NCBI GenBank assembly: GCA_964510165.1
Contig: CAZEBC010000109.1
Location: forward strand, 1-13,399
DNA: 13,399 bases
From: an uncultured bacterium
GTDB lineage: Bacteria > Abyssobacteria > SURF-5
Direction of reading: 5' to 3'
In this document: positions 7 to 13,329 of the stretch, in pieces
Layout: every line of letters starts with the position of its first letter
Position numbering within the stretch: position 1 is the first letter of the stretch
Made by a program: the position numbers and the translations under genes
Notes under the pieces: model-generated
Database searches by the model: none
What the model was told of the DNA's origin: nothing
The model's input: only the letters and a program-made list of their open reading frames with translations

Positions 7-35
7 TTGACATTCCGCCAAATCGTTTGTATAAT
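7..35 (+). promoter_or_regulatory. sigma70-type promoter, perfect consensus
   Basis: TTGACA at 7-12, 17-bp spacer, TATAAT at 30-35; upstream of the Rrf2 gene. Confidence 0.9.
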
Positions 36-637: not shown

Positions 638-666
638 TTGCGTTTCGGAATGACGGCTAACATAAT
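638..666 (+). promoter_or_regulatory. candidate sigma70 promoter of the respiratory operon
   Basis: TTGCGT (638-643), 17-bp spacer, CATAAT (661-666). Confidence 0.45.
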
Positions 667-694
667 GTAAATGCTTCTTTTACGAAGACGGCTT

Positions 695-740
695 GGATTC
701 CCGCTTTCGCGGGAATGACACAGAAGGGACGGGAATGACA
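695..740 (-). repeat. dRS3/CGTC-type REP-like palindrome plus partial copy
   Basis: GGATTCCCGCTTTCGCGGGAATGAC (695-719) contains ATTCCC-N8-GGGAAT (697-716); GGGAATGACA is repeated at 711-720 and 731-740, with a degenerate copy ending CGGAATGACG at 646-655. Confidence 0.7.
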
Positions 741-834
741 TCTTCCGGCATAGCGGTTTTCTTAGTCAAGTCTCTTCCGCCTGTGGTGGGGATGAAGTTG
801 CGCGCAAGAGAAACTGATAAGGACAATCACTACC

Positions 835-2709
835 ATGCCTGAACGCCGCTTCAACGTCAGGATACCCGACGCCGCCTATTGGCGAAGTCTGATCAATTGC
901 CAGGACGCTTGCCCCGTCCACACCGACGCGCGCGGGTACGTCCGCGCCATCGCCGCCAAGGACTACGAACTGGCCTACCTCATCGCGCGCGGACCCAACC
1001 CGCTCGCCTCAATCTGCGGCCGAATCTGCGGCGCTCCCTGCGAGGTCAACTGCCGCCGTGGCTCGCTTGACCGCCCCATCTCCATTCGCGCGCTTAAAGG
1101 CTTTGTCGCCGAACGCTTCGGCCCCGAAGCCTGGGCCGCCGAAGGCGACTACTTCCGCGAATGGCTCAGCAAGAAGGTCACGCCGCAGCTCTGCCAGAGT
1201 CGAGACGAACTGCTCTGGCTCCTCCACGGCTCAAATAATCTTCAAACCCAAAAAGCAACGGTCGCGATCATCGGCTCAGGGCCGGCCGGCCTGGCATGCG
1301 CTCACGACCTCGCGCTGCTCGGTTTCAAGCCGGTCATCTACGAGATGGAATCCGTGCCCGCCGGAATGCTCTACGTCGGCGTCCCCGAATACAGGCTTCC
1401 GCGAGAGGTCATCCGCGCCGAGGTGTCCGTCATCGAGTCGCTGGGGGTCGATATCCTCTGCGGAATTCAGGTCGGCAAGCACGTGGAGTTCGACACGCTT
1501 CGCGCCGAGCACGCAGCCGTCGTCGTGGCCGTCGGCGCCAAGAAATCCCGAAGCCTGCCAATCCCCGGCGTGCAGGGGCCGGACGTCCTCGGCGGCGTGG
1601 ACTTTCTCCGCGACGTTGCGCTCCGCAATCCCGTCACGCTCGGCAATCGGGTGGTGGTTATCGGTGGTGGAAATGTTGCGTATGACGTGGGACGCACCGT
1701 CCTCCGACAGGCCTATTTCGACATGGCTCGAACCGCAGTCCGGCAGGAAGCGGTCCGCGAAGTGCATCTCTGCTGTCTCGAATCGCTCATGGAAATGCCC
1801 GCCGACGACATCGAAATCCGCGAGGGCGCCGAAGAGGGAATCCTGCTCCACACAAGCCTCGGCCCCAAGGAAATACTTCGCGACCGCGACGGCAAAGTCA
1901 CCGGCGTCGTCTTCCAGAAGGTGTTGCGCGTCTATGACGAAAACAAGCGGTTCGCCCCCCAGTTCGATCCATCCGAGATCACAACCATCGAATGTGACAC
2001 CGTGCTCCTCGCCGTCGGGCAGTCCGCCGACCTCTCGTTCATAGAGCCCGCGCGCGACGGAGTCAAGATAAGCGAACGCGGAATCCCAACCATCAATGCG
2101 GACACGCTTGAAAGCAGCGCCAGCGGCGTATTCTTCGCCGGAGACGTGGCGCACGGGCCGGGCCTCATGATCGGCGCCATCGCCAGCGGCAAGAAGGCCG
2201 CGCGGTCCGTCTTCGAGCACATAACGGGCAGGCGTCTCGACGTCAACCTCCGCGAACTTCATCTCGAACTCACCGGCTACAGGCGCGAGAAGGGATACGA
2301 GCGCATCGCGCGCGTCGAAGTACCCGCAGCCGATCCCGAATCCCGCGTGCGTTCGCATGGCATACCGGTCGAACTCGGCTACTCCGAGCGAATGGCCCTC
2401 AGAGAGTCTTCCCGCTGCCTCGATTGCGGCGTCAACACCATCTTCGATTCGGAAAAATGCGTGCTCTGCGGCGGATGCGCCGACGTGTGCCCAACGCTCT
2501 GTCTCCGTCTGGTCTCTCTCGAAAACATGGAGTTCAACGATGACCTGACAGAGGCGATCAAGGCTCGGCCCTCCGAGAACCCGCATCAACCGCTTTCTGC
2601 CATCATCAAGGATGAGGAAAAATGCATCCGTTGCGCATGTTGCGCCATGCGGTGTCCGACCGGCGCGATTACCATGGAACGCTTCTGCTTTCAGGAGAAA
2701 CCGCTATGA
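835..2709 (+). CDS. FAD-dependent NAD(P)H oxidoreductase, GltD/NfnB/DsrL-like, with C-terminal 2[4Fe-4S] ferredoxin domain, 624 aa
   Basis: CQDACP and CGRICGAPCEVNC (N-terminal Fe-S domain), GSGPAG (FAD), GGGNVAYD (pyridine nucleotide), FFAGD, ESSRCLDCG, CVLCGGCADVCP and CIRCACCAMRCP. No signal peptide or TM segment; AAGGA RBS at 819-823. Confidence 0.92.
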   Translation: MPERRFNVRIPDAAYWRSLINCQDACPVHTDARGYVRAIAAKDYELAYLIARGPNPLASICGRICGAPCEVNCRRGSLDRPISIRALKGFVAERFGPEAWAAEGDYFREWLSKKVTPQLCQSRDELLWLLHGSNNLQTQKATVAIIGSGPAGLACAHDLALLGFKPVIYEMESVPAGMLYVGVPEYRLPREVIRAEVSVIESLGVDILCGIQVGKHVEFDTLRAEHAAVVVAVGAKKSRSLPIPGVQGPDVLGGVDFLRDVALRNPVTLGNRVVVIGGGNVAYDVGRTVLRQAYFDMARTAVRQEAVREVHLCCLESLMEMPADDIEIREGAEEGILLHTSLGPKEILRDRDGKVTGVVFQKVLRVYDENKRFAPQFDPSEITTIECDTVLLAVGQSADLSFIEPARDGVKISERGIPTINADTLESSASGVFFAGDVAHGPGLMIGAIASGKKAARSVFEHITGRRLDVNLRELHLELTGYRREKGYERIARVEVPAADPESRVRSHGIPVELGYSERMALRESSRCLDCGVNTIFDSEKCVLCGGCADVCPTLCLRLVSLENMEFNDDLTEAIKARPSENPHQPLSAIIKDEEKCIRCACCAMRCPTGAITMERFCFQEKPL

Positions 2710-3173
2710 GTGATACGAGGAAACCGGAACCGATCAAACGCCGCGATTTCCTGGGCAGGACCGCGATGCTCACGTGTGGCGCTTCACTCGGACTGGCCGC
2801 CGTCGGAATCGCCAGGCTGCCGTTCCCCGCCGTCATCCCCGGCGAATCGAGCAAGGTGAAAGTCGGCCGCCCCGACGATATCTCCTTCGGCGAGCCGCGC
2901 TGGATAGCCAAGGCGCGCGCATTCCTCTTCCGCGACGGAGACGGCGTGTTCGCCATCTCGGGCGTATGCACGCACCTCGGCTGCATTGTTGCCCGGTCCA
3001 CCAACGGATTCGACTGTCCCTGCCACGGTTCGAGGTTCGGTCCGCTCGGCGAAGTGACAAAAGGGCCGGCGCCGGCGCCGCTTCCCTGGCTTGAAGTCGC
3101 CCTCGCGCCCGACGGCCAACTCGTTGTTGACGTGCAAACTACGGTGCAGCCGGGATTCCGGTTCAAAGTGTAG
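2706..3173 (+). CDS. Rieske [2Fe-2S] subunit of a Rieske/cytochrome b complex, 155 aa
   Basis: Start reassigned to ATG 2706 (ATGA overlap with the upstream stop; AGGAG RBS). Twin-Arg KRRDFLG plus hydrophobic anchor; CTHLGC and CPCHGSRF boxes; GPAPAPL. Confidence 0.95.
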   Translation: MSDTRKPEPIKRRDFLGRTAMLTCGASLGLAAVGIARLPFPAVIPGESSKVKVGRPDDISFGEPRWIAKARAFLFRDGDGVFAISGVCTHLGCIVARSTNGFDCPCHGSRFGPLGEVTKGPAPAPLPWLEVALAPDGQLVVDVQTTVQPGFRFKV

Positions 3174-3182
3174 GGGGGACCA

Positions 3183-4739
3183 GTGAAAGAGTCTGACAAG
3201 GAATCTGCATCCGCGCTCCAAACCTTTATCGCAAATCTTCGAGAGACGCCCGGGCACTTGCGCGACGCTGTCTTTCGGCACGACCGCCCAAACACCGACC
3301 GCACCCGCTCGCAAGCGGTCTTCGCGAACTTCTTCCTCCATATCCATTCCACCCGCATCCATGAGCGCAGCCTGCGCTTTTGGAGCACCTGCGGACTCGG
3401 CGTCGGCGCACTGGCCTGTTTCATAATTCTGACCTTCACCGGCATCTTGCTTATGGTGTATTACAAACCGGCCACTTCACAGGCCTACCAATCAATCAAA
3501 GACATCCATTTCGTGGTTCCCACGGGCCTGTTCATTCGCAATATCCACCGCTGGAGCGCGCATCTTATGGTGCTGCTTGTGTTCCTTCACATGGCCCGCG
3601 TGTTCTACACTAACTCATATAAGAGTCCGCGCGAGTTCAATTGGCTGATAGGCCTGGCACTGCTCGTCGCCACGCTTGGGCTCAGCTTCACAGGCTATCT
3701 TCTGCCCTGGGACCAGTTGGCGTATTGGGCCATCACCATCGGCTCGAATATCGCGCAATCGCCTCGCGAGGTCACCGATGCGCTGGGCATCACCCGATAC
3801 TTCGACCCGGGCGGGTTGCAGAAAAGATTGCTGCTTGGCGCTGACACCGTTGGTCAGGAGGCGCTCACGCGGTTCTATCTGTTGCACGTGATACTGCTTC
3901 CGCTTGTCGCTGCGATCCTTATTGCTGTGCACTTCTGGCGAGTTCGCAAGGACGGGGGCTTGGCGCGGCCGCCCGACGAACCAGGCGAACCTGTCCGTTT
4001 GCTCACCGGCCAGAGTGTATCGTTCGGGCTCGATCCTCGGAAAACTTACGGCCTGATGGCGCTCGTTCGCGGAAAGACGCCCCAAGTGGACCATGGCCCG
4101 GAAAAGACGGTGACCACGTGGCCGAACGCCTTCTATGCGGAACTCGCGGTCTTCATGGCCACGTGCGCGATCTGCCTCGTGCTGGCCTTGCTCGCCGACG
4201 CGCCACTTAAGGAACTCGCCAACCCCAACATTCCCGAAAACCCCGCGAAGGCGCCCTGGTATTTCCTCGGGCTGCAAGAACTGGTTTCATATTCGGCGTT
4301 CATGGGAGGAATCGGAATTCCCACCCTCGTGCTGATCGGGATCGGTCTGATACCGTTTCTTGATCGAGAGCCGGAGGTTGGCGGCGTGTGGTTGTCGGGC
4401 CCGAACCACAAACTGATCGCCGGCCAAAGCGCGCTGTACGCCATGTTCGTAGTGCTTGCCATGCTCATCTTCACGATCAACATGGGCTGGCTCCGCAACT
4501 GGATACCCGATATCCCCCAACTCATCATAATTGTGCTCAATCCGGGCACCATTTTTGTGGCGCTCTTTGCGTGGTGGTCGCTGTTCATCGTGCGGCGGCA
4601 CAACTCAACGCGCGCGGGCGCCATCGCTCTGTTCACATGTTTTCTTGTTGCGTTCACGATCCTCACCTATGTGGCTACGGTCCACCGAGGACCGAACTGG
4701 AACTTCTACTGGAGTCACAGCCAATGGCCGATACACTGA
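3183..4739 (+). CDS. cytochrome b of a Rieske/cytb complex (fused cyt b6 + subunit IV type), 518 aa
   Basis: TGILLMVYYKP, IRNIHRWSAHLMVLLVFLHMARVF (H-x13-H), FTGYLLPWDQLAYWA, RFYLLHVILLP...IAVHF (H-x14-H), Qo-region NPAKAPWYF, C-terminal RGPNW. GTG start after GGGGGA. Confidence 0.94.
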   Translation: MKESDKESASALQTFIANLRETPGHLRDAVFRHDRPNTDRTRSQAVFANFFLHIHSTRIHERSLRFWSTCGLGVGALACFIILTFTGILLMVYYKPATSQAYQSIKDIHFVVPTGLFIRNIHRWSAHLMVLLVFLHMARVFYTNSYKSPREFNWLIGLALLVATLGLSFTGYLLPWDQLAYWAITIGSNIAQSPREVTDALGITRYFDPGGLQKRLLLGADTVGQEALTRFYLLHVILLPLVAAILIAVHFWRVRKDGGLARPPDEPGEPVRLLTGQSVSFGLDPRKTYGLMALVRGKTPQVDHGPEKTVTTWPNAFYAELAVFMATCAICLVLALLADAPLKELANPNIPENPAKAPWYFLGLQELVSYSAFMGGIGIPTLVLIGIGLIPFLDREPEVGGVWLSGPNHKLIAGQSALYAMFVVLAMLIFTINMGWLRNWIPDIPQLIIIVLNPGTIFVALFAWWSLFIVRRHNSTRAGAIALFTCFLVAFTILTYVATVHRGPNWNFYWSHSQWPIH

Positions 4740-7054
4740 ACGAGAGCAACGACAAGCAAGAGCGGCGAGACATCTTCGCGGAGGTACCCGTCCCGACGTT
4801 CGACCCGGTGACGCCGGAGGGCCGCAAAGCGCGCTGGGCGCTTCTCATCACCTCGCTCATAACGCTTGTGTGCCTGCTCGCGGCAATCGTGTCGGAGCAC
4901 TATACCAAACCCTGGAGGATATACCAACGACGCTTTGGCGACGTACTCGCCGCGCAAGCTCGCGCACGCGGCAAGCGCCCGGTCTCCTTTCCCCAGGAGG
5001 TCAAACAAGTCACGGTTCAGGCATTCGATGTGGTGGATAGATGCACGACATGCCACGTCGGTATTGACGACCCATCAATGTTCAATGAAGACCAGCCGTT
5101 CCGCGCGCATCCGAAATGGGCCTTCGACATTCATTCGCCCGACCGGTTCGGGTGCACCACCTGTCACGGAGGCCAGGGACTCGCCACAACCGCCGAGGAC
5201 GCACACGGCTACGTCGAGCACTGGGAAGACCCAATGATCCCAAAAGATTATTACCAGGCCGGCTGCGGCAGTTGTCACACTCACATCAAAGTACATTCCA
5301 GGGAACTGGCTGATTACGGGCTCAGGCTTTTCGAGCGAAACGACTGCTTCGCGTGTCACCGGATCAACGGAAGGGGCCGCGGAAACGGGCCGGACCTCTC
5401 CGCCATCGGAGCAAAGCGCCCGCGAACTGACTGGCACACGCAGCATCTCGCCCTCAAAGAGCAGGTCGCCGATGAACAGTGGCTCCAGAGTTACGGCCCT
5501 CTCGAACAGGATGAAGTGTTTGCCATCAACGCGTTTCTCGACCAGTTGATGCAAGCCCCGCAACTTGTCGAAGCGAAAGCGGTCGTGTACGAGAATGGCT
5601 GTCTGGGATGCCACCGCATAAACGGAGTGGGCGGAGATGATGGACCGGACCTCTCAGGCACGGGGAAGAAGAATCTCGCGCGACTCGATTTCTCGAACGT
5701 CTCGGGAGACCGAAATCTCGCAAACTGGCACAAGGCCCATCTCAAGAACCCCGGCCTCATCGTTCCGAACAGCCAGATGCCGCAGCCCGACCTCGCGGGC
5801 GAGGAACTTGAAGCCGCAACGCTCTACATGCTCTCTCTGCGAGGAGCGGATGTCCCAATGAGTCGGTGGCCGCCCGCCCGCTTCGAGGCCGAGCGGCTGG
5901 GCGTGCGCGATTTTCCGCAGGATGGCAAATCCCTGTTTAAGGCGTTCTGCATTTCCTGTCACGGCGAGGACGGGATGGGAACCAGATTCGGCATATCGCC
6001 GCAGGCGTTCCCCGCCGTTGCGCATCCTGAATTTCTTGAGGTCGCCTCCGACCGCTTCATTCGCGAAAATCTGTTTCAGGGGCGGCCGGGGCGCCGCATG
6101 CCCTCGTGGGGCACAAAGGAAGCCGGGCTGAAATCTTCGGAGATCGAGGCATTGGCTCGTTATCTTCGGTCGTTCGAGCCGTCTGCGCCCGAATGGATAG
6201 CGGTATCGAACGCGACGCCCGACAAAGAGCTTGGCGGGCGCTTATATCGAGAAAACTGCGCGATGTGTCACGGAGCCAGCGGCGAAGGCGCAATCGGGCC
6301 CGCCCTTTCAAATCCCGTCTTCCTCGCGACAGTCGAACCGAAATACATTCACACAATGATAGCCGAAGGGCGCGAGGAAACCGCGATGGGCAGCCAGGCC
6401 ACGCTCGACGCTCATGAGATGGCCTCGATCATCGCGCACGTCTTGAATTGGCGACAAGGCAAAACTATGCCACTCCCTGAGTTGCCCGAGCCGGGGCCGC
6501 TTCACTTGGGGGAGGCGGTTTTTTCAGCGTCCTGCTCGCCGTGCCATGGGGCAAGGGGCCAAGGGAATCTTTCGGCAAATCTTGTAAGTCCGGCCTTCCT
6601 GGAAGCAGCGTCAGACGGGTTCATGGCCGCCGCAGTCAAGTATGGCCGCTGCGCGCCGCCGGAAAGCGCACCGCCTGGGGTTTCCGCTCCGGAAGTGACC
6701 GACCAACAACTTGCCGATGCCATCCATTACATCCGCGAGCGTCTTGGACCGGGAATCAAGCAGCCGCCTGGCCGGCTCGCAAGTGGAGACACGGCAAATG
6801 GGCGAGAGCTGTTCAGCGAGATGTGCGCAGGCTGTCATGGCGCTGATGGCCGCGGCGGAGGTTCGCCGGAACTCACCAATTTGGCGCTGCTCGCGAGCGC
6901 GACCGATGGCTACTTGCAGGCCTCGATCCTTCGCGGGCGCCCGTCGGCGGGCATGCCTGCGTTCGGCAAAGATAGCATCACGTACAGAAAGCTCACGGCA
7001 GAAGAGGTGAGCGATATCGTGAAATACCTAAGGTCATTCGAGTCTGGGTCGTGA
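4724..7054 (+). CDS. membrane-anchored multiheme cytochrome c (9 CxxCH), 776 aa
   Basis: Start reassigned to ATG 4724 (GGAG at 4711-4714). One N-terminal TM helix (WALLITSLITLVCLLAAIVS); motifs CTTCH, CTTCH, CGSCH, CFACH, CLGCH, CISCH, CAMCH, CSPCH, CAGCH. Confidence 0.93.
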   Translation: MADTLNESNDKQERRDIFAEVPVPTFDPVTPEGRKARWALLITSLITLVCLLAAIVSEHYTKPWRIYQRRFGDVLAAQARARGKRPVSFPQEVKQVTVQAFDVVDRCTTCHVGIDDPSMFNEDQPFRAHPKWAFDIHSPDRFGCTTCHGGQGLATTAEDAHGYVEHWEDPMIPKDYYQAGCGSCHTHIKVHSRELADYGLRLFERNDCFACHRINGRGRGNGPDLSAIGAKRPRTDWHTQHLALKEQVADEQWLQSYGPLEQDEVFAINAFLDQLMQAPQLVEAKAVVYENGCLGCHRINGVGGDDGPDLSGTGKKNLARLDFSNVSGDRNLANWHKAHLKNPGLIVPNSQMPQPDLAGEELEAATLYMLSLRGADVPMSRWPPARFEAERLGVRDFPQDGKSLFKAFCISCHGEDGMGTRFGISPQAFPAVAHPEFLEVASDRFIRENLFQGRPGRRMPSWGTKEAGLKSSEIEALARYLRSFEPSAPEWIAVSNATPDKELGGRLYRENCAMCHGASGEGAIGPALSNPVFLATVEPKYIHTMIAEGREETAMGSQATLDAHEMASIIAHVLNWRQGKTMPLPELPEPGPLHLGEAVFSASCSPCHGARGQGNLSANLVSPAFLEAASDGFMAAAVKYGRCAPPESAPPGVSAPEVTDQQLADAIHYIRERLGPGIKQPPGRLASGDTANGRELFSEMCAGCHGADGRGGGSPELTNLALLASATDGYLQASILRGRPSAGMPAFGKDSITYRKLTAEEVSDIVKYLRSFESGS

Positions 7055-7059
7055 CCATC

Positions 7060-7111
7060 GTAGGGGGGCCCCTATGTGAGCGCCCGTGCGGCCACACAGG
7101 ACCGCTCCTAC
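7060..7111. repeat. inverted pair of GTAG-type REP elements (REPIN-like doublet)
   Basis: 7060-7085 GTAGGGGGGCCCCTATGTGAGCGCCC matches the 94-119 copy at 20/26; the reverse complement of 7086-7111, GTAGGAGCGGTCCTGTGTGGCCGCAC, matches at 22/26. Confidence 0.75.
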
Positions 7112-7171
7112 GACGAATGGCGCAACACGTTAGACAATTTGCAGAACCTTGACCGGTCCAGGAGGGACACC

Positions 7172-10647
<3,476 letters not shown>

Positions 10648-10648
<1 letters not shown>

Positions 10649-11778
10649 TGGCGCGCGTATATAACTGGCAGATAGGCCGGAAGATGAGCTACTGGTACGG
10701 CGAGGCGCGGCCACAGCGCCAGTTCGCCGCCGTCTTCGACATAAACAAGTGCATCGCGTGCCAGACATGCACAATTGCGTGCAAGACGACGTGGACGTCG
10801 GGCCGGGGGCAGGAATACATGTTCTGGAACAACGTCGAGAGTAAGCCCTATGGGGGTTACCCGACCGCGTATGACGCGAGAATACTGGAATTGCTGGGGC
10901 CGCAGTCATGGGAGGGCGAGCGCTACGAAGGCAGGACCATCTTTGAGGCGGCTCCGCCGGGAGAGCGGCTGCTGGGATTTCGTCCCGAGAGCGAGGATTA
11001 TGCGCATCCGAATCTCGGCGAGGATGAAAGCTTTGGAGGGGTAGAGCGAGGGGCCGCGATGAATCTGCCTCAGCCGATGTGGATGTTCTACCTGGCGCGT
11101 ATCTGCAATCACTGCACCTATCCGGCGTGTCTGGCGGCGTGTCCGCGCGGCGCCATCTACAAGCGGCAGGAGGACGGCATTGTGCTTGTGGACCAGAAGA
11201 GATGCCGGGGATACCGCGAATGCGTGCGCGCGTGTCCGTACAAGAAGGTATTCTACAACTCGCACACCAATACGTCTGAGAAGTGCATCGGCTGTTATCC
11301 TTTGGGCGAGCAGGCGACTCAGCCTCGCTGCTTCACGGAATGCATCGGAAAGATTCGGTTGCGCGGCTGGTTGAGCACTCCAGAGAAAGCGAGCGAGGAC
11401 AACCCGCTGGATTACCTGGTTCACGTCAAGAAGGTGGCCTTGCCGTTGATGCCGCAGTTGGGACTTGAGCCGAACGTGTACTACATTCCTCCGGTTCATG
11501 TGCCGGAGCCGTTCCTTGTGCAGCTTTTTGGCCCTCGGGCGGCGCAGGCGGTGGAGACATATCAGATGGCTCAAGAGAATAACGTCGAGCTTGCGGCACT
11601 GATAGCGCTGTTTGGCTGTACGCCGAATGTTATTCCCAAGTTCAAAGTGCGAAACGACAAAGTCAGCGCTTTGGATGATCGAGGGAGCACGTTGATCAGC
11701 GTGCCGATGCGGGAACCCGTGACGGTGAGAACCGCATTTGACCAGAGGCACGGAGTCCCTCGAACGAACATAACCTGA
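10648..11778 (+). CDS. nxrB: NXR-like beta (Fe-S) subunit, 3x[4Fe-4S] + [3Fe-4S], 376 aa
   Basis: TAATG coupling to alpha. [11 protein letters not shown]-terminus, [64 protein letters not shown]...[19 protein letters not shown]. Confidence 0.9.
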
Positions 11779-11792
11779 GTGGAGGAATCCCG

Positions 11793-12692
11793 ATGCGATC
11801 CAGAGTTCGCTTATTGCTGATGGGGGCGGCCATGTTGACCGCCACGCTCGCAGGTTGCGGAAAGGCGTCGCAGAAAGTGGCGGCGACCGGTCCCGGCATA
11901 ACTGCCGTGCATATCGCCGGCGACGCCGGTAAGCTTGAGCCGGACAGTCCAGAGTGGCGGAAAGCGCCGGAGATGGCCGTGGCGCTCTTGCCGCAGGATA
12001 TGACCGATCCGAAGCTGATTGAGGTAGCCATTTCGCAGGTGAAAGTGAAGGCGATGTGCGGCGGCCAACGCATCGCATTCAGGATCGAGTGGGATGACCC
12101 CACGGAGGATATGATTTCCGAGGACGGCCGTTTTTCGGACGCGGTCGCGATTCAGCTTCCGCCCGCGCCGGGCGGCCAGGTTCCCGATCCGACAATGGGG
12201 CTCACGGGGCAGCCGGTTCTCATACATCTTTGGAAGGCGTGTTATCAGAGGAGGCTCGAGTTCGGTCCCTGGGACATCCGGCAAACGTTTCCGAACGCGA
12301 CGGTGGACCACTATCCGTTTGAGGCCGCTTCTGACGAAGAGAGGGGCCAACTGACGGCGCAGTACACCATTGCGCTGTCGGCGGGCAATCCGCTCGCGGC
12401 GTCTCGGACGTCGAGTGTGGACGATCTGACGGCGGAGGGCTTCGGGACGCTGCGGCCGCTTCCCGCGCAGGCGTCGGCGGGCAAGGGGAAATGGGCGAAC
12501 GGAAAATGGTCAGTGGTCATCACGCGGCCGCTCTCGGTCCCGGAGTGGTTGAGCGGTCCGGGTTTCAAGCCGGGCGACAGCACGTTCGCGGCATTTGCGG
12601 TTTGGGACGGGGGCAGGGATAACGCAGGTTCACGAAAGGCGAGGTCGGTCTGGACGCCCTTGACTTTGGAGGCGGGAGGGACCAATGGATGA
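11793..12692 (+). CDS. nxrC: heme b-binding gamma subunit (EbdC/NxrC-like, EB_dh/DOMON family), predicted lipoprotein, 299 aa
   Basis: GGAGG RBS at 11781-11785; lipobox LAG|C; IAFRIEWDDPT, FSDAVAIQLP, PTMG (Met ligand), AEGFGTL, GKWSVVITRPL, AFAVWDGG...GSRK (Lys ligand). Confidence 0.85.
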   Translation: MRSRVRLLLMGAAMLTATLAGCGKASQKVAATGPGITAVHIAGDAGKLEPDSPEWRKAPEMAVALLPQDMTDPKLIEVAISQVKVKAMCGGQRIAFRIEWDDPTEDMISEDGRFSDAVAIQLPPAPGGQVPDPTMGLTGQPVLIHLWKACYQRRLEFGPWDIRQTFPNATVDHYPFEAASDEERGQLTAQYTIALSAGNPLAASRTSSVDDLTAEGFGTLRPLPAQASAGKGKWANGKWSVVITRPLSVPEWLSGPGFKPGDSTFAAFAVWDGGRDNAGSRKARSVWTPLTLEAGGTNG

Positions 12693-13329
12693 GATGAAAT
12701 GTTTGCTGAGAGCCGGAGCGAGATACAGGTTTTGTTCCCTCCTGTTTCGTTATCCGAGCGAGGACGTTATTTCAGCGGCGAGCGCTCTGGTGGATACGTT
12801 CGCTCCCGAAGTTCAGCGCGACGCGAGCGAGTTGGTTGGGTTGATGGCGAGCGCGCAGGCGCGGACGGAATATCATTTCTTGCTTGGGAGCGGCGGCTCG
12901 GTCTCTCCATACGAATCGGCATATCAGGCGGATGGGAGCGCTCGAGACAAAGGGGCGGTGCTCGGCGACGTTGCGGGTTTCTACCGCGCATTCGACTTTG
13001 AGCACATGAGAGATGCACGTGAGGCGCCGGACCATGTAGCGGTTGAGCTTGCATTTCTCAGCTTTCTGAAGCTGAAAGCGGCGTACGCGCTGATGAATAG
13101 AGACGAGGGGGCACATCGCATCTGCCGCGATGCGGAAGAGCGTTTTCTTGATGACCACCTGTCCGGTTGGCTTCCCGAATTTCTCAAGCGAATCGGGGAG
13201 CGGGCCGCGAGCGAATTCTATCGAAGGGCGGCTCGCTTAACTACAGAGACACAGAAACACAGAGAAAGACCGACCATTGGCCGTGGACGTCGTGGACGAT
13301 GTGGACGAACACGGACATACACAGGCTGA
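12685..13329 (+). CDS. TorD/DmsD-family molybdoenzyme maturation chaperone (delta subunit), 214 aa
   Basis: SPYESAY, DVAGFYRAF, EAPDHVAVELAFLSFL, FLDDHLSGW; 8-nt overlap with the gamma gene. The last ~29 residues derive from repeats. Confidence 0.88.
   Translation: MDEMKCLLRAGARYRFCSLLFRYPSEDVISAASALVDTFAPEVQRDASELVGLMASAQARTEYHFLLGSGGSVSPYESAYQADGSARDKGAVLGDVAGFYRAFDFEHMRDAREAPDHVAVELAFLSFLKLKAAYALMNRDEGAHRICRDAEERFLDDHLSGWLPEFLKRIGERAASEFYRRAARLTTETQKHRERPTIGRGRRGRCGRTRTYTG

What the first reader, a model, noticed from the sequence alone, without database searches (positions are those of the whole stretch)
835..13329. One operon joins an NAD(P)H oxidoreductase-Rieske/cytb-nonaheme module to a periplasmic NXR-like enzyme
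Seen: eight same-strand genes with overlaps or short gaps (ATGA at 2706-2709, 9 bp, 16-nt overlap, 117 bp, TAATG, 14 bp, 8-nt overlap); no narI-type quinol oxidase. Known: Rieske/cytb clusters with an NAD(P) oxidoreductase and multiheme cytochromes occur in anammox bacteria, encoded apart from nxr; Rieske/cytb-linked periplasmic Nar occurs in haloarchaea and Methanoperedens. Inference: the cluster encodes a membrane-spanning chain, cytoplasmic NAD(P)H <-> cyt b/quinone <-> Rieske <-> 9 hemes <-> heme b <-> Fe-S <-> Mo. It could run as Q-cycle or bifurcating nitrate respiration, or as nitrite oxidation with built-in reverse electron transport. I know of no characterised complex with all these parts.
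Basis: partly seen in the sequence, partly recalled or inferred. Interest (0 to 1): 0.9.

Follow-up and report, generated by a model that had tools for sequence, protein, structure and literature searches.

The report
Nitrate reductase wired to bc complex
Eight tightly packed genes join a periplasmic nitrate/nitrite molybdenum enzyme to its own Rieske/cytochrome b complex, a many-haem cytochrome and an NAD(P)-binding flavoprotein; the same set recurs in many uncultured bacteria and has not been studied biochemically.

Summary
All eight genes, their junctions, the nine CxxCH motifs and the domain assignments are as described.

The set is a conserved cassette. Among the 80 best NxrA relatives in species genomes, 49 of 51 loci with enough upstream DNA carry flavoprotein, Rieske, cyt b and cytochrome c in the same order. 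17 of 18 shorter loci show as much of it as fits. In most relatives the cytochrome c and nxrA genes overlap.

Most likely it is energy-conserving nitrate respiration. Quinol is oxidised by the Rieske/cyt b complex and electrons run through the multihaem cytochrome and a lipoprotein haem-b subunit to a TAT-exported NXR-type enzyme. The flavoprotein is probably a cytoplasm-side subunit. Whether it makes NAD(P)H by quinol bifurcation, as proposed for anammox, or feeds NAD(P)H in, is open.

Nitrite oxidation is unlikely here: no cytochrome c oxidase was found.

The halves are known separately, in haloarchaeal Nar clusters and in anammox complexes. Their adjacency was noted in Thermogutta terrifontis in 2017. 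I found no paper on the whole cassette. This scan has met the cassette before on other genomes. It is a new variant of a known kind.

The parts
835..2709 (+). Cytoplasmic FAD/NAD(P)-binding iron-sulfur flavoprotein (NfnB/GltD-like), 624 aa, with an added C-terminal 2x[4Fe-4S] ferredoxin domain. It has no signal peptide.
   Evidence: Pfam Fer4_20, Pyr_redox_2 and Fer4. The nearest solved chains are NfnB-like domains: 9bov_A at 3e-73, 8oh5_C at 1.2e-65, 5jca_L at 2.7e-57. Six N-terminal and eleven C-terminal Cys are invariant in 50 of 50 sequences.
2706..3173 (+). Rieske [2Fe-2S] protein, 155 aa, with a twin-arginine N-terminus and one membrane anchor.
   Evidence: Pfam Rieske. CTHLGC...CPCHGS has Cys and His invariant in 53 of 53. 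R12 and R13 are invariant. Ser109 is invariant and Phe111 is kept in 50 of 53.
3183..4739 (+). Cytochrome b, 518 aa: a b6-like part fused to a subunit-IV-like part plus extra C-terminal helices.
   Evidence: Pfam Cytochrome_B. The nearest solved chains are cytochromes b6 at 1.5e-40, against about 6e-25 for bc1 cytochromes b. H122, H136, H235 and H250 are invariant. APWY replaces PEWY in 48 of 48. H53 is invariant; H60 and H518 are kept in 47 of 48. C70 is kept in only 4% of sequences. NCBIfam's nearest models are ExtP and ExtQ, below their cut-offs.
4724..7054 (+). Membrane-anchored nine-haem cytochrome c, 776 aa. Four N-terminal haems lie in a compact multihaem part, followed by class-I monohaem domains.
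   Evidence: Nine CxxCH motifs and one hydrophobic segment at 35-60. Pfam Cytochrom_C, Cytochrome_CBB3 and Cytochrome_C7. The haems at C512 and C604 are insertions that most homologues lack.
7055..7171 (+). 117-nt spacer between the two modules.
   Evidence: No promoter-like or terminator-like site lies inside it. Its fold is not unusual, z -0.43. In relatives this junction has a median of -4 nt.
7172..10648 (+). TAT-exported Mo-bisPGD catalytic subunit of the Kuenenia/Nitrospira-type NXR / periplasmic Nar clade, 1158 aa.
   Evidence: 7b04_B, Kuenenia NXR-A, matches at E 4.6e-281 over residues 12-1154. The FS0 motif C71-x3-D75-x3-C79, Asn74 and the Mo ligand Asp279 are invariant in 68 of 68. 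The RR pair is kept in 67 of 68.
10648..11778 (+). Iron-sulfur beta subunit (NxrB/NarH-like), 376 aa.
   Evidence: Pfam Fer4_11 and others. NCBIfam DMSO_red_II_bet at 3.6e-81, below its cut-off.
11793..12692 (+). Haem-b gamma subunit (EB_dh family), 299 aa, predicted lipoprotein.
   Evidence: Pfam EB_dh. 7b04_C, Kuenenia NXR-C, matches at 1.5e-22, and Met135 and Lys282 align to its haem ligands Met155 and Lys305. Both are invariant in 64 of 64. The lipobox Cys22 is kept in 63 of 64.
12685..13329 (+). NarJ/TorD-type assembly chaperone, 214 aa.
   Evidence: Pfam Nitrate_red_del. NCBIfam DMSO_red_II_cha, below its cut-off.

Best explanation
The eight genes encode one respiratory unit that reduces nitrate outside the cytoplasmic membrane.

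Menaquinol is oxidised at the outer quinol site of a b6-type Rieske/cytochrome b complex. The high-potential electron goes Rieske -> membrane-anchored multihaem cytochrome c -> haem b of a lipid-anchored EB_dh-type gamma subunit -> the Fe-S chain of the beta subunit -> FS0 -> Mo-bisPGD, where nitrate becomes nitrite. Routing quinol oxidation through a Rieske/cyt b complex makes an outward-facing nitrate reductase electrogenic, which a simple quinol dehydrogenase would not.

The flavoprotein is a built-in subunit on the cytoplasmic face of cytochrome b. It exchanges electrons between the b haems and NAD(P)(H) through its Fe-S clusters and FAD. I lean to the direction proposed for anammox complexes: the second, low-potential electron of quinol reduces NAD(P)+, driven by the large drop from menaquinol to nitrate.

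Shown here: the gene content, the cofactor ligands and the conserved linkage. Inferred: the substrate, the contacts between subunits, and above all the direction of flow through the flavoprotein.
For: Linkage:
- A-B-C-D lies directly upstream of nxrA in 49 of 51 loci with at least 6.4 kb upstream, and as far as the DNA reaches in 17 of 18 shorter loci. F-G-H follows in 63 of 64.
- The cytochrome c to nxrA junction has a median of -4 nt in 63 loci.
- Six of the ten other genomes held for the host phylum carry NxrA at 82-84% identity and the flavoprotein at 73-77%. In five of them both lie on one contig at cassette spacing.
- The flanks differ from locus to locus.
- Distance matrices of the two modules correlate at r 0.66-0.80. 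The Mantel test gave 0.001 with 999 permutations.

Cofactors: every expected ligand is invariant.

Orientation: the TAT motifs on NxrA and Rieske and the lipobox on gamma are conserved.

Nitrate as substrate:
- The whole protein is similar to Kuenenia NXR-A, with Asn74 and Asp279 kept.
- The nitrate-respiring isolate Thermogutta terrifontis has TorD, 'NarI', NarH, NarG, cyt c1, cyt b and Rieske as neighbouring genes THTE_1506-1512, in the same order (PMC5673643, passages and supplement rows).
- Rrf2, Crp-type and hemerythrin genes recur beside the cassette.

Reductive direction: the host has no COX2, and its only haem-copper enzyme is qNOR-like.

Flavoprotein as a subunit:
- It is always the first gene and overlaps the Rieske gene.
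- The complex prediction of cyt b with flavoprotein residues 145-624 scored 0.52 against a best control of 0.00. That is weak support: the mark was reached by 116 of 157 solved complexes and 2 of 215 mismatched pairs, but scores of 0.60 or under by only 18 of the 157 and by both mismatches. The runs agreed in at least 94% of contacts and the partner's pLDDT was at least 78.

Leaning to NAD(P)H production:
- The Rieske Ser109/Phe111 pair is the pattern of Kustd1480, measured at +335 mV. Near-invariant His residues lie just before helix A of cyt b, the region where the published models of the Kuenenia complexes place an extra haem b next to the flavoprotein (PMC12954380, passages).
- The host has MqnA, which points to menaquinone, and two NuoD-like genes, so it needs no extra NADH oxidase.
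Against: - No expression or activity data exist for this locus or any homologue that I could find.
- Only the best 80 of at least 686 relatives were examined, so the share of the wider family with the cassette is unknown.
- Three loci have the NXR genes without the upstream module: L027, L047 and L030. The enzyme can therefore work with other partners.
- The ABC and EFG blocks correlate better within than between themselves. A subgroup combines a much more divergent module 1 (flavoprotein about 42% identical) with an equally similar NxrA (67-69%). The halves have therefore sometimes been exchanged.
- Castelle et al. 2013 reported that a Zixibacteria NXR-like protein lacks three of five conserved substrate residues and might act on another substrate (PMC3903129, passage). 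I checked only Asn74 and Asp279.
- The window has a 117-nt gap where most relatives have an overlap.
- The PEWY glutamate of the quinol site is replaced (APWY), and the Cys that carries haem c_n in b6f is absent. Quinol-site chemistry may differ from known complexes.
- The equivalence of cyt b H53/H60 with the Kuenenia haem ligands was not tested by alignment.
- Many carriers are probably heterotrophs with no obvious need to make NAD(P)H from quinol.
- The complex score is of the weak class and used my own alignments.
Confidence: 0.55

Rival explanations
1. Same chain, opposite role of the flavoprotein. It is an electron input. NAD(P)H reduces FAD and the Fe-S clusters, which reduce the inner b haem or quinone on the cytoplasmic side. 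The unit is then a self-contained NAD(P)H:nitrate oxidoreductase with a Q cycle, comparable to FNR feeding cytochrome b6f in cyclic electron flow (that comparison is recalled, not from a call).
For: The gene content fits equally well. Many carriers are labelled Acidobacteriota or Planctomycetota and are likely organotrophs with surplus reductant. T. terrifontis grows on sugars with nitrate. NADPH is not a substrate of complex I (established knowledge).
Against: It bypasses proton-pumping complex I, of which the host has two NuoD-like genes. The authors of the Kuenenia study reject this direction for the homologous complexes as an 'enormous energy loss' (PMC12954380, passage). The Rieske Ser/Phe pattern matches a high-potential Rieske in a menaquinone organism, which fits bifurcation better.
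Confidence: 0.25
2. The unit runs as a nitrite oxidase. Electrons from nitrite enter at the Mo enzyme and are pushed backwards through the bc complex to quinone and NAD(P)+. This is reverse electron transport for autotrophy.
For: NxrA belongs to the clade that holds the Kuenenia NXR, which works in both directions (PMC8387239, abstract and passages). Suarez et al. 2023 read such genes in Planctomycetota as possible nitrite oxidoreductases (PMC10732223, passages).
Against: This host has no cytochrome c oxidase: no COX2 was found, and the one COX1-family gene carries a NorB-type N-terminal domain. Its bd oxidase takes quinol, not cytochrome c (established knowledge). With menaquinone, one nitrite electron plus one NAD(P)H electron cannot reduce quinone exergonically (my arithmetic from standard potentials). 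The cultured carrier reduces nitrate.
Confidence: 0.06
3. The molybdoenzyme acts on another substrate, such as chlorate, perchlorate, selenate or an organic compound. The bc module then serves that reaction.
For: Castelle et al. 2013 note missing substrate residues in a related protein. No NCBIfam model reaches its cut-off for any subunit. The same genome holds a second EbdA-like enzyme joined to a cyt b and a multihaem cytochrome, so such modules serve several enzymes.
Against: The protein matches nitrite oxidoreductase over its whole length at 938.7 bits, against 175 bits for perchlorate reductase and 125 for ethylbenzene dehydrogenase. The substrate-facing Asn and the Asp ligand are invariant. 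NO- and nitrite-type regulators recur beside the cassette. In the genome paper on T. terrifontis this is the nitrate reductase described.
Confidence: 0.07
4. The genes are co-transcribed but make separate complexes. The bc complex reduces soluble carriers for several acceptors, and the flavoprotein is a free cytoplasmic enzyme.
For: Three loci carry NXR without the module. The modules have partly separate histories. The complex prediction gave only weak support.
Against: The order and the overlapping junctions are kept across at least nine phylum-level labels in otherwise unrelated surroundings. In Kuenenia the homologous flavoprotein co-migrates with its Rieske/cyt b complex, as cited in PMC12954380 (passage).
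Confidence: 0.07

Closest known systems
Haloarchaeal periplasmic Nar clusters (narGH with narB Rieske, narC cytochrome b, Orf7 haem-b protein, narJ; Martinez-Espinosa et al. 2007, as cited in PMC4683180, passage seen)
   Same: A TAT-exported NarG-type enzyme, an EB_dh-type haem-b subunit, a chaperone, and a Rieske protein plus cytochrome b in one gene cluster. A Q-cycle-type coupling is proposed for an outward-facing nitrate reductase, and antimycin A inhibits it.
   Different: Those clusters are archaeal. As far as I recall they have no multihaem cytochrome c and no flavoprotein. Here the catalytic subunit belongs to the Kuenenia/Nitrospira NXR clade (Asp-ligated FS0) and the gamma subunit is a lipoprotein. 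I did not compare sequences with haloarchaeal proteins.
Anammox Rieske/cytochrome b complexes with an NAD(P) oxidoreductase subunit (Kuenenia Kuste4569-4573 and Kustd1480-1485; Kartal 2013 and de Almeida 2016 recalled; Hauser et al. 2025, PMC12954380, passages seen)
   Same: An FAD/Fe-S flavoprotein related to NfnB-like proteins is encoded with Rieske, cyt b and multihaem cytochromes c. The Rieske Ser/Phe pattern is that of Kustd1480. Conserved His residues lie before helix A of cyt b, the region where an extra haem b is modelled in Kuenenia.
   Different: In anammox the high-potential partner is not encoded with the complex and is unknown. Here it is an NXR-type enzyme in the same operon. The Cys for haem c_n is not conserved here, whereas the Kuenenia models include c_n. 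There is no HAO-like octahaem partner here.
Thermogutta terrifontis R1 genes THTE_1506-1512 (Elcheninov et al. 2017, PMC5673643; passages and two supplement tables seen)
   Same: Same gene order from Rieske to chaperone, in a pure culture that respires nitrate. The authors suggest that complex III takes part in nitrate respiration. A Thermoguttaceae MAG holds two full copies of the cassette.
   Different: The paper calls the enzyme cytoplasmic NarGHI and does not mention a flavoprotein. THTE_1513 appears only as an expression row in what I saw. I did not see the T. terrifontis sequences themselves.
Kuenenia stuttgartiensis NXR-ABC (PDB 7b04; Chicano et al. 2021, PMC8387239)
   Same: Alpha, beta and gamma subunits with the same cofactor ligands: Asp on FS0, Asp on Mo, Met/Lys on haem b.
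   Different: The Kuenenia enzyme is soluble, forms tubules with NXR-T, and its nxr cluster has no Rieske/cyt b genes. Here gamma carries a lipobox, and the operon supplies a membrane complex.
Membrane-bound NarGHI of E. coli (PDB 1q16 and others)
   Same: The same enzyme superfamily and the same reaction.
   Different: NarGHI faces the cytoplasm, has a His-ligated FS0 and uses the dihaem NarI quinol dehydrogenase. Its similarity is limited to 131-136 bits, with the best-scoring stretch at query residues 49-406.

Membership tests
Periplasmic NXR / pNar clade of type II DMSO-reductase enzymes (Kuenenia/Nitrospira type) | Twin-arginine signal on the alpha subunit | tested here: met
   RRDFL at residues 14-18. 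Pfam TAT_signal. The RR pair is kept in 67 of 68 homologues.
Periplasmic NXR / pNar clade of type II DMSO-reductase enzymes (Kuenenia/Nitrospira type) | FS0 cluster with 3 Cys + 1 Asp (C-x3-D-x3-C), an Asp ligand to Mo and a substrate-facing Asn | tested here: met
   C71, N74, D75, C79, C119 and D279 are invariant in 68 of 68. They align to Kuenenia Cys67, Asn70, Asp71 and Asp275.
Periplasmic NXR / pNar clade of type II DMSO-reductase enzymes (Kuenenia/Nitrospira type) | Full-length similarity to a characterised NXR alpha subunit | tested here: met
   7b04_B matches at E 4.6e-281 and 938.7 bits over residues 12-1154. The next family scores 175 bits.
Periplasmic NXR / pNar clade of type II DMSO-reductase enzymes (Kuenenia/Nitrospira type) | EB_dh-type gamma subunit with Met/Lys-ligated haem b | tested here: met
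   Met135 and Lys282 align to Met155 and Lys305 of 7b04_C. Both are invariant in 64 of 64.
Periplasmic NXR / pNar clade of type II DMSO-reductase enzymes (Kuenenia/Nitrospira type) | Nitrate reduction or nitrite oxidation activity | not testable with these tools
   Only indirect: the nitrate-respiring T. terrifontis has the same gene order.
Rieske/cytochrome b complexes (b6f-like branch) | Rieske CxH...CxxH cluster ligands | tested here: met
   C88, H90, C93, C104, C106 and H107 are invariant in 53 of 53.
Rieske/cytochrome b complexes (b6f-like branch) | Four His ligands for two b haems, with the helix-D pair spaced as in b6 | tested here: met
   H122, H136, H235 and H250 are invariant in 48 of 48. 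H235 and H250 are separated by 14 residues (sequence). That this spacing marks the b6 type is recalled.
Rieske/cytochrome b complexes (b6f-like branch) | PEWY motif at the quinol-oxidation site | tested here: not met
   APWY at 357-360 is invariant in 48 of 48. The Glu is replaced.
Rieske/cytochrome b complexes (b6f-like branch) | Cys that binds haem c_n covalently | tested here: not met
   C70 is present in the window but kept in only 4% of 48 sequences.
Anammox-type Rieske/cyt b complexes with NAD(P) oxidoreductase | FAD/NAD(P)/Fe-S flavoprotein encoded within the Rieske/cyt b operon | tested here: met
   It is the first gene and overlaps the Rieske gene. It is present in 49 of 51 loci.
Anammox-type Rieske/cyt b complexes with NAD(P) oxidoreductase | His on the cytoplasmic side of cyt b that could ligate an extra inter-monomer haem b next to the flavoprotein | tested here: inconclusive
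   H53 is invariant, H60 is kept in 47 of 48 and H55 in 46 of 48, all just before helix A. Their equivalence to Kuste4571 His43 or Kustd1481 His62 was not aligned.
Anammox-type Rieske/cyt b complexes with NAD(P) oxidoreductase | Physical association of the flavoprotein with cyt b | tested here: inconclusive
   The complex prediction scored 0.52 against a best control of 0.00, which is weak support.
Anammox-type Rieske/cyt b complexes with NAD(P) oxidoreductase | Sequence orthology with Kuste4570/4571 or Kustd1483/1481 | not tested
   No Kuenenia sequences were at hand. The GTDB class reached from locus L009 holds only 9 genomes, and only two of them, L009's own and one other, have a close flavoprotein homologue.
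Haloarchaeal Rieske/cyt b-linked pNar | Rieske and cyt b genes in one cluster with TAT-NarG, NarH, a haem-b protein and NarJ | tested here: met
   The haloarchaeal pattern is taken from a passage in PMC4683180.
Haloarchaeal Rieske/cyt b-linked pNar | Common descent of the subunits with the haloarchaeal ones | not tested
   No haloarchaeal sequences were compared.
NarGHI (cytoplasm-facing respiratory nitrate reductase) | NarI dihaem quinol dehydrogenase and no export signal | tested here: not met
   No Nitrate_red_gam domain lies in the window, and a TAT signal is present.
NfnB / GltD / SudA flavoprotein family | N-terminal two-cluster domain followed by an FAD/NAD(P) two-dinucleotide fold | tested here: met
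   Fer4_20 at 21-95 and Pyr_redox_2 at 142-452. Matches to 5jca_L, 4ylf_B and 2vdc_G. No NCBIfam model reaches its cut-off.

The most novel reading that the evidence does not exclude
The cassette is a quinol-bifurcating machine. During nitrate respiration each menaquinol sends one electron downhill to nitrate and one uphill, through the b haems, an extra cytoplasm-side haem and the Fe-S flavoprotein, to NAD(P)+. That would be the mechanism long proposed but never shown for anammox complexes. Here the high-potential partner is written into the same operon, the cassette is spread by gene transfer over many phyla, and it is present in bacteria that grow in pure culture.
Probability: 0.33. Interest if true: 0.9.

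Novelty: new variant of a known kind. Interest (0 to 1): 0.68.

Why it matters
1. Genome surveys often count NXR-like genes of this clade as signs of nitrite oxidation, or model them as cytoplasmic Nar. The cassette context argues that in many uncultured Acidobacteriota, Planctomycetota, Binatia and others they are outward-facing nitrate reductases fed by their own bc complex. That changes nitrogen-cycle budgets inferred from metagenomes. It includes the 'nar' of Ca. Abyssubacteria, whose SURF_5 protein is 82% identical to this NxrA.

2. It explains how a periplasmic Nar can still conserve energy.

3. Whether Rieske/cyt b complexes that carry a flavoprotein make NAD(P)H by splitting quinol electrons has been open since 2013. 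It is hard to test in anammox bacteria. This cassette names the high-potential acceptor and, by the gene order reported for T. terrifontis, occurs in at least one pure culture, so the question becomes testable with ordinary biochemistry.

Tried and rejected
- Haem c_n idea. The window's cyt b has a Cys (C70) near the place of the b6 haem-c_n Cys. It is kept in only 4% of 48 homologues, so I dropped it.
- Apparent fusion of cytochrome c and NxrA in L032 and L033. This was an artefact of my ORF-merging script; a stop codon lies between the genes. The same script mis-merged L031 and the cyt b of L014. Those rows make the extreme values of the junction table meaningless; the medians stand.
- Separate transcription of the halves. 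No terminator-like or promoter-like site and no unusual fold lie in 7055-7171. Consensus scans cannot exclude an internal promoter.
- Reaching anammox genomes through locus L009, which is labelled Brocadiia. Its GTDB class holds 9 genomes, and the only close flavoprotein homologues are in L009's own genome and one other. No comparison with true anammox complexes was made.
- Complex prediction of cyt b with flavoprotein 145-624: weak support, score 0.52 against a best control of 0.00, with the counts given in the For line. Only one job was allowed, so cytochrome c with gamma and the cyt b dimer were not tried.
- Literature. No paper on the whole cassette was found, in a library that lacks most subscription journals. 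Lucker 2010 (PMC2922143) is not held, so the 'five conserved residues' of Castelle 2013 could not be identified. Kartal 2013, de Almeida 2016, Martinez-Espinosa 2007 and ten Brink 2013 were not seen and are cited from recall or through other papers.
- The region upstream of 835. The 168-aa open frame at 1-507 has no Pfam match, and I assign no gene there.

Full report
1. What is there

The window is a complete 13,399-bp contig (C109) of a 4.17-Mb, 325-contig genome that is 97% complete.
- A: an NfnB/GltD-like flavoprotein. It has an N-terminal two-cluster domain, an FAD/NAD(P) fold and an extra C-terminal 2x[4Fe-4S] domain.
- B: a Rieske protein with an RR motif.
- C: a 518-aa cytochrome b.
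- D: a membrane-anchored cytochrome c with nine CxxCH motifs.
- E: a TAT-exported molybdopterin subunit.
- F: its Fe-S subunit.
- G: an EB_dh haem-b subunit whose N-terminus ends in a lipobox (LAGC).
- H: a NarJ/TorD chaperone.
These assignments rest. No NarI domain lies in the window. The best NxrA homologue, at 92% identity, is named after a Candidatus Abyssubacteria MAG. The SURF_5 protein of that lineage is 82% identical.

2. The catalytic half

E matches the solved Kuenenia NXR-A (7b04_B) over residues 12-1154 at E 4.6e-281. Perchlorate reductase, E. coli NarG and ethylbenzene dehydrogenase follow at 175, 136 and 125 bits. The Asp-containing FS0 motif (C71-x3-D75-x3-C79), the substrate-facing Asn74 and the Mo ligand Asp279 align to Kuenenia Cys67, Asp71, Asn70 and Asp275 (passages of PMC8387239). 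They are invariant in 68 of 68 sequences. G aligns to Kuenenia NXR-C, and both haem ligands, Met135 and Lys282, are invariant in 64 of 64. The lipobox Cys is kept in 63 of 64. Unlike the soluble Kuenenia enzyme, this one should therefore be tethered to the membrane by a lipid. No NCBIfam model reaches its curated cut-off for any of the eight proteins.

3. The membrane half

- Cytochrome b is closest to b6 (1.5e-40), ahead of bc1 cytochromes b at about 6e-25.
- The four haem-ligand His are invariant. PEWY is replaced by an invariant APWY. The window's Cys70 is not conserved, so a covalent haem c_n is not a family feature.
- H53 is invariant, and H60 (47 of 48) and H55 (46 of 48) are nearly so. 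They sit just before helix A, on the cytoplasmic side. H518, the last residue, is kept in 47 of 48, C331 in 94% and C486 in 90%; these three are unexplained.
- The Rieske protein keeps all cluster ligands, an invariant Ser109 and Phe111 in 50 of 53.
- The flavoprotein's nearest solved relatives are NfnB-like domains of bifurcating enzymes (9bov_A, 8oh5_C, 5jca_L), ahead of GltD and dihydropyrimidine dehydrogenase. Its 17 cluster Cys are invariant in 50 of 50.

4. Is the joining of the halves real?

A scan of one genome per species found at least 686 NxrA relatives, and the best 80 were kept at 56-82% identity. I searched them with the window's eight proteins by tblastn.
- Of the 51 loci with at least 6.4 kb upstream, 49 have A-B-C-D in order directly before E. 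The exceptions are L027 and L047.
- Of the 18 loci with 250-6399 nt upstream, 17 show as many of D, C, B and A as fit. The exception is L030.
- Eleven loci have too little upstream DNA to tell.
- F-G-H follows in 63 of 64 loci with enough downstream DNA. The exception is L072.

Gene starts were set by a heuristic of mine. With that caveat, the D-to-E junction has a median of -4 nt in 63 loci, with quartiles of -19 and -4. The window's 117-nt gap is the unusual state. It holds no terminator-like or promoter-like site.

The record titles name Acidobacteriota in many orders, Planctomycetota, Binatia, Eisenbacteria, Myxococcota/Deltaproteobacteria, Lentisphaerae, Acidimicrobiia, Limnocylindria and Zixibacteria, among others. 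The flanking genes differ from locus to locus: transposase, group II intron reverse transcriptase, restriction systems. Only Rrf2-type regulators, hemerythrin and a Crp-type regulator recur. The cassette has therefore moved as a unit.

In the ten other genomes held for the host's phylum, six have NxrA at 82-84% identity and the flavoprotein at 73-77%. In five of them both lie on one contig at cassette spacing. In the sixth they are split over contig ends. One Thermoguttaceae MAG holds two copies.

Pairwise distance matrices were computed over 35 sequences that have all seven proteins complete. They correlate at r 0.91-0.95 within A-B-C, 0.86-0.89 within E-F-G and 0.66-0.80 between the blocks. 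The Mantel test gave 0.001 with 999 permutations. Relatedness inflates such tests.

Against strict unity, a subgroup (L012, L014, L019, L024, L031, L061, L063) joins a much more divergent module 1 (A at 41-43% identity) to an NxrA as similar as the rest, at 67-69% where the whole protein aligned. Three loci lack module 1 altogether.

Seven haems are the family norm: 50 of 59 complete homologues have seven, five have eight and two have nine. One count of six and one of four come from loci where my ORF calls are doubtful. The window's haems at C512 and C604 are inserted domains.

5. Direction and substrate

The host has one COX1-family gene, and its 759-aa product carries the NorB cytochrome-c-like domain, so it is qNOR-like. 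No COX2 was found. The host has a cytochrome bd, no NrfA above the cut-off, MqnA of the futalosine menaquinone pathway (menA not found) and two NuoD-like genes. Without a cytochrome c oxidase, nitrite oxidation cannot pay. This agrees with Momper et al. 2018, who found no cytochrome c oxidases in Abyssubacteria and read 'nar' as nitrate reduction, although they modelled it as cytoplasmic (PMC6121073, passages).

The best physiological anchor is Thermogutta terrifontis R1, a pure culture that respires nitrate. Its genes THTE_1506-1512 are TorD, 'NarI', NarH, NarG, cytochrome c1, cytochrome b and Rieske, and the authors suggest that complex III takes part in nitrate respiration (PMC5673643, passages and supplement rows). 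I did not see those sequences. The link to this cassette rests on the gene order and on the Thermoguttaceae MAG.

Castelle et al. 2013 raised the possibility of another substrate for a Zixibacteria relative (PMC3903129). Suarez et al. 2023 read such genes in Planctomycetota as possible nitrite oxidoreductases (PMC10732223).

6. The flavoprotein

For the homologous Kuenenia complexes, Hauser et al. 2025 measured Rieske potentials of +303 and +335 mV. They modelled an extra haem b between the cyt b monomers, ligated by His43 or His62 next to the flavoprotein. They argue for NAD(P)H production and against NAD(P)H input (PMC12954380, abstract and passages).

Several points fit that picture:
- The window's Rieske has the Ser/Phe pattern of the +335 mV protein.
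- Its cyt b has near-invariant His residues in the corresponding region.
- The host probably uses menaquinone and has complex-I-type enzymes.
- The operon supplies an acceptor about 500 mV above menaquinol (standard potentials, recalled).

A complex prediction of cyt b with flavoprotein residues 145-624 scored 0.52 against a best control of 0.00. The tool rates this as weak support. The mark was reached by 116 of 157 solved complexes and 2 of 215 mismatched pairs, but scores of 0.60 or under by only 18 of the 157 and by both mismatches. The runs agreed in at least 94% of contacts, the partner's pLDDT was at least 78, and my own alignments were used.

I therefore lean to bifurcation, at about one in three. 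NAD(P)H input is about one in four.

7. Comparison and novelty

Rieske/cyt b-linked periplasmic Nar is known from haloarchaeal gene clusters. In Methanoperedens the two sets of genes lie apart (PMC4683180). Flavoprotein-bearing Rieske/cyt b complexes are known from anammox bacteria.

The union of both in one widespread bacterial operon, with a lipoprotein gamma subunit and a seven- to nine-haem cytochrome, was not described in any paper my ten searches reached. That library lacks most subscription journals.

Earlier notes of this scan describe the same cassette on other genomes, with the same reading. They are unchecked leads. One pointed me to the Kuenenia gene names, through which I found Hauser et al.

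My verdict is a new variant of a known kind. It is of real interest because it makes the anammox bifurcation hypothesis testable in ordinary bacteria, and because it changes how 'nxr' hits in metagenomes should be read.

Noticed in passing
window 640-745: Two exact copies of CGGGAATGACA lie 20 nt apart (710-720 and 730-740). A third, shortened copy (CGGAATGAC) lies near 648, about 100-190 nt upstream of the first gene. They could be binding sites for a regulator. No regulator gene lies on this contig.
   Followed up: partly
window 7-35: A perfect sigma-70 consensus (TTGACA, 17 nt, TATAAT; 12 of 12 matches) sits at the very start of the contig, 800 nt before the first gene. The open frame behind it (1-507) has no Pfam match.
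   Followed up: no
G000 contig C59 (L101:3-8973): The same genome holds a second cluster: an EbdA-like type II DMSO-reductase alpha subunit (NCBIfam EthbenzDh_ebdA at 9e-211, below its cut-off), then an EB_dh gamma, a beta and a chaperone. These are followed by a split cytochrome b 46% identical to the window's and a multihaem cytochrome c. No Rieske or flavoprotein hit was found in the 9 kb read. A related cyt b / cytochrome c module thus serves another molybdoenzyme.
   Followed up: partly
L100 (G001:C23:14000-33900): One genome of the host's phylum has an NxrA-like gene only 43% identical, without the upstream module. Its gamma subunit is fused to two cytochrome c domains (524 aa), and a multihaem cytochrome gene lies nearby. 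This is a different way of wiring the same enzyme type.
   Followed up: partly
L012, L014, L019, L024, L031, L061, L063: This subgroup of cassettes has a flavoprotein only 41-43% identical, a cyt b that matches over a shorter part, and mostly eight-haem cytochromes (nine in L063; my L031 call is unreliable). Its NxrA is about as similar as in the main group. The two halves seem to have been re-paired at least once.
   Followed up: partly
L104 (G012:C39) and G012:C16: A 9.3-Mb Thermoguttaceae MAG has the full eight-gene cassette on contig C39 and a second close flavoprotein homologue next to the L070 cassette on C16.
   Followed up: partly
window 3183-4739 (cytochrome b residues 331, 486, 518): Cys331 and Cys486 are kept in 90-94% of homologues, and a His as the very last residue in 47 of 48. 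None has a counterpart that I know of in bc1 or b6f complexes.
   Followed up: no
window 13280-13329: The chaperone gene ends in a short run of GTGGACG-like repeats that encodes an Arg/Gly-rich tail (RGRRGRCGRTRTYTG). Whether relatives have this tail was not checked.
   Followed up: no
G000 contig C16:18805-20780: Two adjacent open frames (461 and 698 aa) match cytochrome bd subunit I only weakly (E 1e-7 and 1e-10). They are separate from the true bd oxidase on C49.
   Followed up: no
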